DNA of 63,672 nt, filler included, from Octopus bimaculoides (Eukaryota): assembly GCF_001194135.2 (NCBI RefSeq). It is 4 parts of 4 records of this genome, joined end to end, with 100 filler letters (N's around TTAATTAATTAA, not from the genome) between each part and the next. Parts side by side here need not be neighbours in the genome. Positions count along the whole stretch, not along the records: positions 30,806 to 53,127 come from NC_068984.1; positions 53,228 to 61,890 come from NC_068986.1; positions 61,991 to 63,672 come from NW_026378656.1; 1 more part is not named here. One strand, written 5' to 3'. The position numbers were made by a program, and so were the translations under genes. The stretch's first letter is position 1. Every line of letters begins with the position of its first letter. The notes under the pieces were generated by a model. The model saw only the letters and a list, made by a program, of their open reading frames with translations, had not been told where the DNA came from and searched no databases. Shown here piece after piece: positions 36,409-63,672 of this stretch.

Positions 36409-36864
36409 NNNNNNNNNNNNNNNNNNNNNNNNNNNNNNNNNNNNNNNNNNNNNNNNNNNNNNNNNNNNNNNNNNNNNNNNNNNNNNNNNNNNNNNNNNNN
36501 NNNNNNNNNNNNNNNNNNNNNNNNNNNNNNNNNNNNNNNNNNNNNNNNNNNNNNNNNNNNNNNNNNNNNNNNNNNNNNNNNNNNNNNNNNNNNNNNNNNN
36601 NNNNNNNNNNNNNNNNNNNNNNNNNNNNNNNNNNNNNNNNNNNNNNNNNNNNNNNNNNNNNNNNNNNNNNNNNNNNNNNNNNNNNNNNNNNNNNNNNNNN
36701 NNNNNNNNNNNNNNNNNNNNNNNNNNNNNNNNNNNNNNNNNNNNNNNNNNNNNNNNNNNNNNNNNNNNNNNNNNNNNNNNNNNNNNNNNNNNNNNNNNNN
36801 NNNNNNNNNNNNNNNNNGCCAAAGCTGAGTAAAATATTTAGGACATTTTATAAAGAGAAGGTTA

Positions 36865-36912
36865 ATCTTACAGCTGTTTCATGGATATAAACGATATCCC
36901 ATCATCAGGGAC
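36865..36912 (-). ncRNA. Minimal hammerhead ribozyme motif (core intact, stems degenerate)
   Basis: The minus strand reads gtcc-CTGATGA-tg-ggatat-cgttt-atatcc-at-GAAAC-AGCT-GTA-agat, with palindromic stem III ACAGCTGT. Confidence 0.7.
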
Positions 36913-37207
36913 GGTATGGGAGAGTTAAATAGAAGGAAATAGTACAGTGGAATATAAGAAGTTATTTTGGAAAGGGAGAAATATAGGAGGTATAAAGGGA
37001 AATATAATGTAGGTACCATGGAAAAGAAGTCTTTTTACCCATTCTACACAACACATTCCTTAGATGATGGAACAGCAAGTTTAACATCCAACATGTATCT
37101 TTACTTTTATTCTTATATTTCCCTTTATACTTCCTATATCAATCTCTTTCCAAAATAAATTCTTATATTGTACTTGACTATTCCCTTCTATTTAACTCTC
37201 TTATATC

Positions 37208-37255
37208 GTCTCTGATGATTGGATATTTTTTATATCTCTGAAATATCTGTAAGAC
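37208..37255 (+). ncRNA. Minimal hammerhead ribozyme motif (stem I intact, stem III degenerate)
   Basis: Reads gtct-CTGATGA-ttggatattttttatatctct-GAAA-tatct-GTA-agac; stem I is GTCT/AGAC. Confidence 0.6.
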
Positions 37256-37668
37256 TACCCTTTCCTTTATAAAATGTCCTTGATATTCCACAAGCCTTGG
37301 CCTTTTTGTCTCATCACAACCCGCTTTAGACTCCTCATTCATACTATTATCGAACCGAAAGACTTACAGCAGTCGTTTCATAGCACTTACACATACTTAC
37401 CGACTAACAAGGTGCCTCAATTTAAGTACCTAATTCAACGGAATCTTAATTATATATATATACAGAGACATTTAATTTTGGTCGAGTCAGAGCTTCGTTA
37501 GTAGGTGCAGAGAGTTTTCAAGCAAGTCATGACTCTGACAAGTCCTAATTGGCCTGAGCACTTACAGGTGAAACTCAATGTAGCAAGAAATTGATTCGAC
37601 CCAAATAAAATATATCATTAATCTCTACTTTTTTTATTTTTGGTATATTTTCCTTTTTTTTTTTTAAA

Positions 37669-37880
37669 GGTGGTGAACTGGCAGAAACGTTAGCCCGCCG
37701 GGCAAAATGCTTAGTAGTATTTCGTCTGTCTTTACGTTCTGAGTTCAAATTCCGCCGAGGTCGATTTTGCCTTTCATTCTTTCGGGGTCGATAAATTAAG
37801 TACCAGTTGCGTACTGGAACCGATCTAATCGACAGGCACCCACCCCAAGAATTTCGGGCCTTGTGCCTAGAGTAGAAAAG
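37669..37880 (+). mobile_element. tRNA-derived SINE, family B (full length)
   Basis: Head TGGCAGAAACGTTAG, B-box GAGTTCAAATTCC and central GGTCGATTTTGCCTTTCATTCTTTCGGGGTCGATAAATTAAGTACC. Confidence 0.9.
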
Positions 37881-37899
37881 TACATTTTTCTTTTCTGAC

Positions 37900-38946
37900 T
37901 ACTGGAGCCACTTTAAAGGAAACACAGATAGCAAGAGGTGTTCCACAGGGCACTGTCAAAGGGCCACTTATAGTCATAGTGGCCTTGTCAGACATGCCCC
38001 CAGCTACTCAGATAGCCACCCTTGCTAGCTACGCAGATGACACAAAAGTGTCTCAAACAATACAAAATCCTGGAAATATTGCACATCTGCTATGGGAGTT
38101 GGACGCAATACACAGGTGAGCTGAGAACAACAACATTCAGTTTAATGCAGGAAAATTCCAAGCTCTGTACTACCAGTATACAAAGCTGAACATCACGCAG
38201 ACAGGATACACTGGTCCAGGAGGAATTAAAATCCCTGAATCAAAATCAGTGCGTGACCTGGGCATTGACATGAGCAATGATGCTCATGTCACTTTCTAAG
38301 TGTATATTAACAATTTGGTAATGAAATACAGACGGCTAGCCGAATGGATCCCCGAAAGGAGACAATGATGGTCCTTTGAAAGGCATACATCCTCAGCCGC
38401 TTGGACTACTGCTCCCAATTATGATCACATAATATAAAATCAACGGCTGAACTCGAGGCAATCCAACAAAACTACACAAAGAAAATCGTCTCAATGTAAC
38501 GTATCAGCTATTGGGAAAGACTGAAAGAATTAAAACTCTTCTCCCTAGAACGAAGGCTGGAAAGATATTCAGTGATATACATCTGAAAAATCCTGGAAGA
38601 CCTCGTGCCAAACTTAGGTATTGAAAGTTACACAAACAACAGAACGGGGCGCCACTGCATAGTGCTAAAGATCCCTGCATCTCCATCAAAATACAGGACT
38701 AGATACTGCAACAGTTTGGGTTCCAAGGGGCCACAACTCTTCACTATCCTTTCAAAATGCCTGATGGACCTGCAAGGTGTGGGTGTAGAGGTCTTCAAAA
38801 CAAAACTGGATCTCCTCCTTGCAAGGGTTCCAGATGAGCCTACCTCACGGCAGGAACCTACCTCACGGCAGGAACCTACCTCACGGCAGGAACCTACCTC
38901 ACGACAAGAAACACAGACGAGAGCAGCGGCATCAAACTCCCTCATT
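37900..38946 (+). mobile_element. CR1-group LINE, 5'-truncated RT and C-terminus (pseudogene)
   Basis: RGVPQGTVKGPL, ASYADDTK, QFNAGKFQ, SVRDLGI, RLDYCSQL, YWERLKELKLFSLERR and GPQLFTILSK. Stops and frameshifts are present. Confidence 0.92.
38836..38907 (+). repeat. 18-bp minisatellite x4 (GAACCTACCTCACGGCAG) inside the LINE
   Basis: Direct observation; in frame it reads EPTSRQ x4. Confidence 0.95.
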
Positions 38947-61489: not shown

Positions 61490-61890
61490 TGGGTACAGGA
61501 CATCAAAGAAACGTTAAACGAAAACATAAAGACGAACTTTTTTCGAACAACGAAAAAAAAACAAACAGAGAAACGAGACAGGCAACATAAAAAGTATACC
61601 CCTTCATCAGTTGTCCCTGTTTCATCTACTCCGCGTTTCGAAGGCAAGGACAATACGCGACTTCGTTGAAACAGTCCTTCCTGCGAAGCAAATTAAATAA
61701 AATTTGGTATGTTTTGCGGAGGGTGAAAGTGTTAACAAGAACAGGACAGTGAGAACAAGACAGTAAAAACAAACGGTGAGGGCTGTTGAGCCAAGACGAT
61801 AGAAAAATTATTATGAACGCTAGGTAGACGAGCCATGAGAGGAAACAGGAAAAGGCACGTCTTTTCTTTAGCAAAGAGGAAGACAGAAAG
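61490..61890 (-). mobile_element. Interspersed repeat of uncertain class (pyrimidine-rich on -), possibly a PLE end
   Basis: Strong strand bias; contains GAAAC and CTGATGA motifs but no convincing hammerhead fold. No ORF. Confidence 0.35.
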
Positions 61891-61990
61891 NNNNNNNNNN
61901 NNNNNNNNNNNNNNNNNNNNNNNNNNNNNNNNNNTTAATTAATTAANNNNNNNNNNNNNNNNNNNNNNNNNNNNNNNNNNNNNNNNNNNN

Positions 61991-62651
61991 CAAGCACTGC
62001 CTTTGTCATTGTACCAACGTATAAGTGGGACTTCCCATAAACCTGGATATGATTTCTCTGGGCAGTATTTAAGTGCACAGTATTTCCAGTTAACCGGGTA
62101 ATCAAGTGTAAAGGGCCACGTTGGTATCTCTGTAGTATCAGACATTGAACCTGTAACCATCGAACTATCGTAGTAAAATCTATGATCTTCCAAACTTTTG
62201 AACTGGGCATCTTTTCCCAGTGCAAGAAACGGTGAACGCATTCCTCGAATATCTTCTGCTGGAATATCGGACTTTTCACTAAGCCAGATTTTCATGCCAT
62301 TTATTTCATCGGTATAAGTCTTGTAATCAGCATTCAACCAGTAATCTTCTGGAAATTTATGCGATTTGCTATGAGAAGCTATTTCATGCCCCTGGTCATA
62401 TAATTCTTTCACACTGTTATAATTAGTATTATCGCCGGAAACGAAAAATGTTGCTTGAATTGGACAGCCGTTTGGATTGGTTAGGTTCATGCTAAACAAA
62501 TCTCTGTAATAACCGATATTATGCTCATTAATTCCGTCATCAAAAGTCAATAGAATTATCTGCGGAATTGCATTTGTTGGCAATGAGCCTGGAATTTCAG
62601 GCCCAGGACATTTACAGTTCGGTAACTTGCAATGTTCTGGACGACAGGGAC
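61991..62651 (-). CDS. Internal coding exon of a chitin deacetylase-like polysaccharide deacetylase (CE4/NodB); partial, runs into a gap
   Basis: 219 stop-free codons: C..C.LPNC.C...IPG, PQIILLTFDDG (motif 1), NPNGCPIQATFFVS, GHEIASHSKSH (motif 2), GMRSPFL (motif 3), YYDSS, WPFTLDY, YPGLWEVP. The acceptor is TTTTTACTTTGCAG|GT at 62652/62651 (phase 1). Confidence 0.95.
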
Positions 62652-63295
62652 CTGCAAAGTAAAAATCATAAAGTCCAATCAAAAGATGAACGTTTTTTTT
62701 TTAATAGATACGAACACATATCTACTAACTAACTCTTATATGGAATGAGGCCTAGAGCTATTGATCTACAATAATAAAAAAGAAACATGAGTTTCAACCA
62801 TTGGTACGAGGGTAAAAATGAAACTGTGCAAACAATAGGGGAAATCTGTAGAATCAGAGAAAACTGCGCAAAAATTTCATTTACCGTGGGGATTTTTGGA
62901 AGGTTGTTCTTCAACAGAGAGCAGAATGATGCAGTTATCTTGTAAGCATAGCCATTTATACGATTATTGCTATCGGAGAAAAATAAATAATTATATAGCA
63001 CTATTAAATAATTATTTCAAAGATCACTGAAAATCTTCGTGGGAATACATAGATCTAAATATGTTTGTAATACATAGAAAAATATCCGGTGACTCAATGG
63101 CTTGCTTATCGAGGAATATAAGTGAACGCAGTTCATTTATAATATCTTGGAGAGATTTCCATCAACGTTAACTATACTTCATTTTAGCTGAATGGTTATT
63201 AACTATCAGGGAATGTATATTACAAAGTAATATAATGGTACTTTATTTACATTATTTACATTTGACGGATAGTTGTCCTCATCGTGTTTGTTGTT

Positions 63296-63341
63296 AACAC
63301 AACGTTTCGGCTGATATACCCTCCAACCTTCATCAGGTGTC
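63296..63341 (-). ncRNA. Minimal type-I hammerhead ribozyme, core intact
   Basis: GACAC-CUGAUGA-A-GGUUG-gagggUaUaU-CAGCC-GAAAC-GUU-GUGUU. Stem I is GACAC/GUGUU, stem II GGUUG/CAGCC, stem III the loopless palindrome AACGUU, and the triplet is GUU. Confidence 0.85.
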
Positions 63342-63357
63342 TTGGGGAAATTTCGAA

Positions 63358-63672
63358 CCTAGGTTCTCATTCCTAAGGTATTTTTCGATGTTGTTGTTGT
63401 TGTCATTATTATTACTACTAATACTACTACTATTATTATTATTATTACTTCTACTATTATTACTACTATTACTTCTACTATTATTACTACTACTACTACT
63501 ACTACTACTACTACCACTACTAGTACTATTATTATTATTAAGGTCACTGCCTGGAATCGAACTCGGATCCGAGTTCGATTCCAGGTAGTGACCTGAACAA
63601 CAACAAAAACAACAACAACAACAACAACAACAAGAGCAACATCGAAAAATACCTTAGGAATGAGAACCCAGG
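63358..63672. repeat. Zero-spacer palindrome centred at 63567/63568 (GGA|TCC), continuing past the window end
   Basis: 63541-63567 vs 63568-63594 has 1 mismatch in 27; 63358-63393 vs 63637-63672 has 1 mismatch in 36. Different microsatellites lie between these blocks in each arm. Confidence 0.95.
63385..63540. repeat. (GTT)/(ATT)/(ACT)n trinucleotide tract
   Basis: Direct observation. Confidence 0.95.

What the first reader, a model, noticed from the sequence alone, without database searches (positions are those of the whole stretch)
36818..63672. Recurrent architecture: inverted duplications carrying outward-facing minimal hammerheads in two unrelated sequence families
Seen: the 36.8-37.3 kb foldback and the 63.3-63.7 kb palindrome share no obvious sequence beyond the HHR core. 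Both place an HHR on the minus strand of the left arm, pointing away from the centre. The plus-strand mirror is seen in the first and predicted in the second. Inference: a transcript from either strand would contain a long hairpin and one sense ribozyme at its 3' side. This suggests a system of non-autonomous, PLE-mobilised ribozyme foldback elements that could yield cleaved hairpin RNAs. I do not know of a description of this in cephalopods, but could not search the literature.
Basis: inference. Interest (0 to 1): 0.75.

Follow-up and report, generated by a model that had tools for sequence, protein, structure and literature searches.

The report
Penelope fold-back stubs, one tRNA-headed
Both mirror-image repeats are broken-off ends of two different Penelope-type jumping genes, which are known to land as a back-to-back pair with the hammerhead motifs facing out; the hairpin is predicted to smother the ribozyme rather than release cut RNA, and the only unusual part is a tRNA-like head in one family that likely lets it spawn SINE-like copies of its own tip.

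Summary
In detail: both sites are inverted duplications with outward-facing minimal type I hammerhead motifs, and divergent pairs far exceed chance (5 pairs among 23 arms in 1.05 Mb, 0.12 expected; no convergent or tandem pair). The interpretation needs correcting. Neither family is a non-autonomous fold-back unit. Longer genomic copies run into RT plus GIY-YIG reading frames: site A is the 3' end of a Hydra-clade-like Penelope-like element (PLE), site B of a Penelope/Poseidon-like one. The inverted arm also caps copies over 2 kb long, junctions differ between loci, one arm carries the optional PLE tail (22 of 24 pairs), and family B pairs sit in one target-site duplication (10 of 15). This layout is described for PLEs (PMC3846280, PMC8557442). 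In the hairpin the sense ribozyme is predicted fully paired (14 of 14), and RNA-seq shows no pile-up of ends. Unusual: family B has a degenerate tRNA head between two ORF copies, and 10 of 12 sampled head-bearing arms start there. The scan noted this family, and this layout, before on other DNA.

The parts
36818..37007 (-). Site A left arm: inverted, 5'-truncated copy of the 3' end (pLTR) of a Hydra-clade-like PLE; outer end lost in the assembly gap
   Evidence: family
36864..36912 (-). Minimal type I hammerhead motif, left arm; core intact, stem I mismatch; predicted cut after 36869
   Evidence: sequence
37008..37013 (.). Short filler at the head-to-head junction
   Evidence: sequence
37014..37400 (+). 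Site A right arm: 5'-truncated 3' UTR/pLTR of the same PLE family, carrying the long optional tail
37208..37255 (+). Minimal type I hammerhead motif, right arm; core intact, helix III palindrome mutated; predicted cut after 37251
63240..63567 (-). Site B left arm: last third of the tRNA-like head (63567-63536), AAT-type microsatellite, hammerhead region, short (tail-less) 3' end of a Penelope/Poseidon-like PLE terminus
63296..63341 (-). Minimal type I hammerhead motif, loop-less helix III, GUU triplet; predicted cut after 63301; overlaps the start of the PLE reading frame in long copies
63553..63582 (.). Perfect 30-base palindrome at the head-to-head junction; one exact occurrence in G000
63568..63672 (+). 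Site B right arm: head remnant, AAC microsatellite, first 33 positions of the tail profile; cut by the contig end before the hammerhead; predicted to carry the tail and be followed by a TSD
   Evidence: prediction

Best explanation
Each site is a 5'-truncated insertion of a Penelope-like retroelement with an inverted copy of its own hammerhead-bearing end, likely made in one integration event in which two cDNAs are primed at the two sides of a staggered cut and joined head to head. Shown: both families continue into RT plus GIY-YIG frames; the inverted arm occurs at all lengths; one arm has the tail and the other not; family B pairs lie in one 10-13 base TSD. Inferred: the PLE protein nicks both strands and starts reverse transcription at either of two sites downstream of the ribozyme, so both 3' ends and both hammerheads face outward; the truncated 5' ends join by microhomology or at small palindromes. 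The ribozymes are passengers: once inside the hairpin they are predicted not to fold, and the copies decay. In family B most short copies start at a tRNA-derived head, likely because a Pol III transcript starting there served as template. Read-through transcripts would form long dsRNA, a likely ADAR substrate.
For: Coding continuity: B into an ORF with RVT_1 (E 1.8e-7), DKG, YVDD and GIY-YIG-type motifs; tandem junction ORF end - head - hammerhead - ORF start in L336. A into RT and EN frames with CxCX5C linker, matching the Hydra description and Hydra proteins by eye. Inverted hammerhead arm on long copies: B L278, L287, L288, L290, L293; A L296, L297, L307, L310. Orientation: 6 divergent, 0 convergent, 0 tandem neighbours within 1 kb among 22 B arms, null mean 0.11, p 2e-4; three control repeats 12 vs 12.0, 4 vs 1.3, 4 vs 4.0. 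Tail on one arm only: B 13 of 14, A 9 of 10 with both ends readable. TSD: 10 of 15 pairs vs 0 of 210 mismatched flank pairs. A arms share private variants (2.3% vs 0.55% of sites, 0 of 5000 permutations). The arm reaching further 5' lacks the tail in 12 of 17 informative pairs (B 7 of 8, A 5 of 9), so neither arm is a plain copy of the other. Literature: PMC3846280, PMC8557442, PMC11167929: both strands cut and extended, two start sites bounding the tail, HHR cleavage not needed.
Against: B arms are no more alike than random pairs (7.7% vs 7.7%, p 0.35-0.38), so that test gives no support for B. No TSD can be read at either window site (gap, contig end) or in family A (microsatellite flanks). 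5 of 15 B pairs missed the TSD threshold. Pfam gave no GIY-YIG hit and no hit for A proteins; clade calls are by motif, no tree. No intact ORF found (longest stop-free stretch 405 aa in 25 N-terminal loci). Palindromes at several junctions fit the self-priming model of PMC3846280 too. Family A loci came from a fold-back query and are biased; the unbiased sample held only 5 A hits (1 pair, within-locus p 0.06).
Confidence: 0.88

Rival explanations
1. Same PLE origin, but the second arm arises by self-priming: one cDNA folds back at a small palindrome and copies itself, with later trimming of one end.
For: Short palindromes at the head start in many B copies; perfect palindrome at site B; proposed for PLEs in PMC3846280; 5 ties among 14 B pairs.
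Against: In 12 of 17 informative pairs the longer-reaching arm lacks the tail that the shorter arm has, which a self-copy cannot give without trimming; fillers and offset junctions are common.
Confidence: 0.3
2. One reading: a system of non-autonomous fold-back elements, mobilised as units, that yields ribozyme-cleaved hairpin RNAs.
For: Strong excess of divergent pairs; hammerhead core less diverged than its flanks (B 2.5% vs 4.2%, p 0.046; A 3.5% vs 8.3%, p 3e-5); fold-back joints appear in RNA reads.
Against: Junctions not shared: 16 A junctions all differ; of 16 B junctions only two pairs of loci fall within 3 bases, one unresolved in the microsatellite, one at the head start; site B junction unique. 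P(stem II) 0.000 in 14 of 14 complete fold-back contexts. No pile-up of ends. Core conservation is explained by selection in the source elements.
Confidence: 0.05
3. Family B short copies are a separate non-coding tRNA SINE that parasitises Penelope elements.
For: 14 of 14 tRNA invariant positions in register; 10 of 12 sampled head-bearing arms start at the head; no T4 run from head through tail in the two tandem copies that hold the head, L323 and L336.
Against: Head and tail are colinear with the ORF end upstream and ORF start downstream in coding copies, so the sequence is the autonomous element's own pLTR; no diagnostic SINE-only subfamily was looked for.
Confidence: 0.15
4. Assembly artefact (hairpin chimera at a gap or contig end).
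For: Site A abuts an N gap, site B ends its contig.
Against: Arms are 83% and about 93% alike with different microsatellites; the same layout with TSDs occurs mid-chromosome.
Confidence: 0.02

Closest known systems
Typical EN+ Penelope insertion with inverted pLTR, one-sided tail and TSD (Pen2a_Av etc.; Arkhipova et al. 2013, PMC3846280, abstract and sections 6, 8, 11 read; Craig et al. 2021, PMC8557442, passages)
   Same: Head-to-head inverted pLTR, optional tail on one arm, 9-10 bp TSD, palindromes at the junction, pLTR overlapping the ORF start, hammerhead in the pLTR.
   Different: Here tens of thousands of short stubs per genome instead of single copies; family A tail about 135 bases rather than 30-40; family B has a tRNA-like segment in the pLTR.
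Penelope/Poseidon PAc of Anolis (Frangieh et al. 2024, PMC11167929, parts 1-2 of 4 read)
   Same: Hammerhead overlapping the ORF start, two 3' ends bounding a tail, no RNA-seq ends at the cleavage site.
   Different: No tRNA-like head reported in the parts read; fold-back formation not addressed there.
Hydra-clade PLEs, incl. Hydra-1_Obim (PMC8557442 section 11 and supplement searches)
   Same: Family A has the CxCX5C linker, CxxC and CxH near the EN end, (TA)n targets, a canonical-type hammerhead; proteins look alike by eye.
   Different: Its hammerhead differs from the one listed for Hydra-1_Obim and its 14-base motif is absent from the supplement; family A has a 1.2-kb 3' UTR and is longer than 3 kb.
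Schistosome Sm-alpha / Sj-alpha SINE-like elements (second-hand, review PMC6765202 passages)
   Same: Pol III-type promoter followed by a hammerhead.
   Different: Described as tandem multimers cut into monomers; family B is dispersed, head-to-head and part of a coding PLE.
Non-LTR retrozymes (bioRxiv 10.64898/2026.07.22.740005, part 1 of 5 read)
   Same: Type I hammerhead, PLE pLTR origin.
   Different: Defined by tandem units with two or more sense ribozymes; none seen within 1 kb in the sample.

Membership tests
EN+ Penelope-like elements | Single ORF with RT and C-terminal GIY-YIG endonuclease linked to the terminus | tested here: met
   B: RVT_1 E 1.8e-7, EN motif by eye. A: RT and EN motifs by eye, no Pfam hit. 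All copies seen are broken.
EN+ Penelope-like elements | Minimal type I hammerhead in the pLTR | tested here: met
   Motif intact in 39 of 52 B and 34 of 43 A arms; cleavage untested; Rfam negative.
EN+ Penelope-like elements | Inverted 5'-truncated copy at the 5' end, tail on one end | tested here: met
   B 13 of 14, A 9 of 10.
EN+ Penelope-like elements | Target-site duplication around the whole insert | tested here: met
   B 10 of 15 vs 0 of 210 controls; not readable for A or at either window site.
EN+ Penelope-like elements | Partial tandem arrangement | tested here: met
   B: sense hammerhead region runs into the ORF start in L317, L323, L326, L327, L330, L336; not examined for A.
EN+ Penelope-like elements | RT phylogeny within PLEs | not tested
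   No reference proteins in the script box; PDB hits are weak RT and telomerase matches.
Penelope/Poseidon clade (family B) | DKG motif, CCHH in EN, no Zn-finger linker | tested here: met
   DKG in 12 of 25 loci in the expected context; others by eye against PMC8557442.
Hydra clade (family A) | CxCX5C linker, no CCHH, CxxC/CxH, (TA)n target | tested here: met
   By eye in L188/L298, L190, L198, L310; flanks.
Hydra clade (family A) | DKT and RWK motifs | tested here: inconclusive
   One copy (L303) reads a variant at the DKT position; N-terminus not recovered.
tRNA SINE (family B short copies) | tRNA-derived head with A and B boxes | tested here: met
   14 of 14 invariant positions in register, stems decayed (2/7, 3/5, 3/5); ARAGORN and Rfam negative.
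tRNA SINE (family B short copies) | Separate non-autonomous family with a LINE-derived tail | tested here: not met
   Head and tail are the terminus of the coding PLE.
tRNA SINE (family B short copies) | Pol III transcription from the head | not testable with these tools
   Only fragmented unstranded RNA-seq; 5'-end clustering is indirect.
Non-LTR retrozyme | Tandem units with two or more sense hammerheads | tested here: not met
   0 tandem neighbours within 1 kb among 22 B and 5 A hits; one tandem third copy at L035.
Fold-back / MITE-like unit element | Same internal junction and ends in many copies | tested here: not met

The most novel reading that the evidence does not exclude
An autonomous Penelope element has captured a tRNA gene into its terminal repeat and uses it as an internal Pol III promoter, so that one element is its own SINE: short head-plus-hammerhead transcripts are copied by twin priming into tens of thousands of fold-backs, which form a main genome-wide source of long dsRNA for the extreme A-to-I hyper-editing reported for octopus.
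Probability: 0.35. Interest if true: 0.7.

Novelty: new variant of a known kind. Interest (0 to 1): 0.4.

Why it matters
What remains: (1) high-copy fold-backs give counts on how PLEs integrate (one-sided tail, one TSD, arms not copies of each other), which favour twin priming over self-priming; (2) a tRNA-derived head inside the pLTR of a coding PLE, which I did not find in print, blurs the SINE/PLE boundary; (3) octopus has unusually high dsRNA potential and hyper-editing whose repeat source was not assigned in PMC5625713, and these ready-made hairpins are a testable candidate.

Tried and rejected
Rfam at three scopes: no hammerhead or tRNA match. ARAGORN: 0 tRNAs in 14 B loci; 2 spurious calls in 1.9 Mb, so no genuine tRNA for comparison and the isotype is undetermined. 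Protein search with a PLE RT fragment gave other PLE families with no A or B hammerhead hit. Pfam blank for the EN pieces and A proteins. Arm-similarity test uninformative for B. The look-up of sequencing runs: no RNA holder listed; the raw RNA runs came by species label. RNA-seq shows no pile-up of ends, but fragmented cDNA libraries are weak for this. Excess of A>G plus T>C places in RNA (32-33 vs 27-30 C>T plus G>A) against contig run X15 (7 vs 16) is only suggestive (Fisher p 0.05-0.09); X15 is of unrecorded kind, contigs drop rare variants, and some non-editing changes are also RNA-enriched. The sample could not be enlarged beyond 1.2 Mb. My first readings (non-autonomous families; A as Nematis-like) were dropped. 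Ohshima and Okada 1994 on octopus tRNA SINEs and Lunse et al. were not held; Repbase and Dfam were not available, so family B may already have a name. No structure or complex prediction was run.
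Full report
Observation. The window is a pack of four stretches; the two sites lie on G000:C4 and on the 1682-base contig C83799. Site A is a fold-back with arms 157/189 alike and a hammerhead core on each arm, pointing outward. Site B is a head-to-head palindrome with one hammerhead on the minus strand; the mirror lies beyond the contig end. The sites share only the core. Rfam does not recognise the motifs; they fit the minimal type I hammerheads with palindromic helix III described for PLEs (PMC4209133, passages).

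Is it more than chance? I fetched 120 evenly spaced 10-kb stretches from the ten largest contigs, 1,046,572 non-N bases. Family B: 22 hits, 6 divergent neighbours, none convergent or tandem within 1 kb, null mean 0.11, p 2e-4; family A: 5 hits, 1 divergent pair. Counting only arms that span the ribozyme: 5 pairs among 23 arms, null 0.12, p 5e-5. Three abundant control repeats were at or near chance (12 vs 12.0; 4 vs 1.3, p 0.04 genome-wide, 0.62 within locus; 4 vs 4.0). A family-blind descriptor found 12 motifs against 0 in three shuffles, and both close pairs were divergent. Densities of 21 and 4.8 per Mb imply roughly 40,000 and 10,000 arms.

What the families are. Walking upstream, B continues through a tRNA-like head into the end of an ORF with RT and GIY-YIG motifs (RVT_1 E 1.8e-7). 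Downstream, the hammerhead region is the first codons of the next ORF copy; L336 holds the whole junction. DKG is present and there is no Zn-finger linker, which fits Penelope/Poseidon. A continues through about 1.2 kb of UTR into RT and EN frames with a CxCX5C linker and lands in (TA)n, which fits the Hydra clade (PMC8557442 section 11 and supplement; compared by eye). The two proteins are only remotely alike (26% over 93 aa). No intact ORF was seen.

Why the ribozymes face outward. Long coding copies carry the same inverted hammerhead arm at their 5' end, up to 2.4 kb (B) and about 3 kb (A) from the sense one, so the short fold-backs are the low end of a size range. Both families have two 3' ends; one arm is long and the other short in 13 of 14 B pairs and 9 of 10 readable A pairs (7 more A pairs had one end cut). 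A TSD flanks the whole pair in 10 of 15 hand-listed B loci against 0 of 210 mismatched pairs. A arms share private variants; B arms do not differ from random pairs. Junctions differ between loci and the site B junction is unique. This is the typical PLE insertion of PMC3846280 (sections 6, 8, 11 read) and PMC8557442. In 12 of 17 informative pairs the arm reaching further 5' lacks the tail, which favours two separately primed cDNAs, in line with PAc cutting and extending both strands from two start sites (PMC11167929), over simple self-copying. This step is inferred.

Cleaved hairpins? In all 14 complete fold-back contexts folded, stem II probability is 0.000 and the core is paired; isolated motifs give 0.06-1.0. 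Dimer-type ribozymes need a second sense copy. Three unstranded RNA runs of the species label of the best holder put 4,924-7,090 of 11.5-12.9 million reads on a B copy, with strand-switch joints but no pile-up of ends; site A drew 243-313 reads, many on a neighbouring repeat, 0-2 at 99% identity. An A>G/T>C excess hints at editing but is not significant.

The unusual part. The B head keeps 14 of 14 tRNA invariants in register while its stems have decayed; ARAGORN and Rfam miss it. 10 of 12 head-bearing arms in the even sample and 19 of 31 in the tail-selected set start within -15 to +12 of the head, often with a small palindrome. A Pol III template is the likely cause; an RT stop at that hairpin is the alternative. 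Searches showed no paper on a tRNA-headed PLE or on these families; most hits were seen as listings only. Also seen as passages: PMC6765202, PMC5625713, PMC6962438, PMC10886601; bioRxiv 2026.07.22.740005 part 1 of 5, supplements not seen. Older octopus SINE work was not held.

Earlier scan notes. One gave the lead that the head lies between two gene copies, which I confirmed; three that call the family a non-coding SINE are contradicted in part; two on this genome reached the same verdict on the layout.

Verdict. Real, recurrent, explained by known PLE integration; a new variant in family B's tRNA head. Interest 0.4.

Noticed in passing
window 61993-62640 (-): Exon of a polysaccharide (chitin) deacetylase gene, PF01522 E 3.6e-10; site B lies about 600 bases upstream, probably in an intron, so it would be read through on the minus strand.
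   Followed up: partly
L122:7080, L139:6439-6768, L081:9387, L083:2809-3600: A third hammerhead-like repeat family, with a fold-back at L139.
   Followed up: no
L126:5519-6004 and L076:3652-3926: Fragments of other PLE-like coding sequence also in local inverted repeats.
   Followed up: partly
window 37670-37830: Very abundant tRNA-type SINE (241 profile hits in 1.05 Mb), mostly tandem neighbours, no divergent excess; resembles CORE-SINEs from recall.
   Followed up: partly
window 37404-37453: A 50-base piece of another, more highly expressed repeat abuts the site A tail.
   Followed up: no
L150:7610-8032: B fold-back whose arms differ at 1 of 128 sites: a young insertion or arm-to-arm conversion.
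   Followed up: no
L188, L198, L190, L310 (family A linker): Asparagine-rich (AAT/AAC) stretch between RT and EN, like the N-rich inserts of rotifer Penelopes in PMC3846280.
   Followed up: no
window 37900-38200: Looks like a decayed LINE RT fragment (YADD-type motif by eye); not scanned.
   Followed up: no
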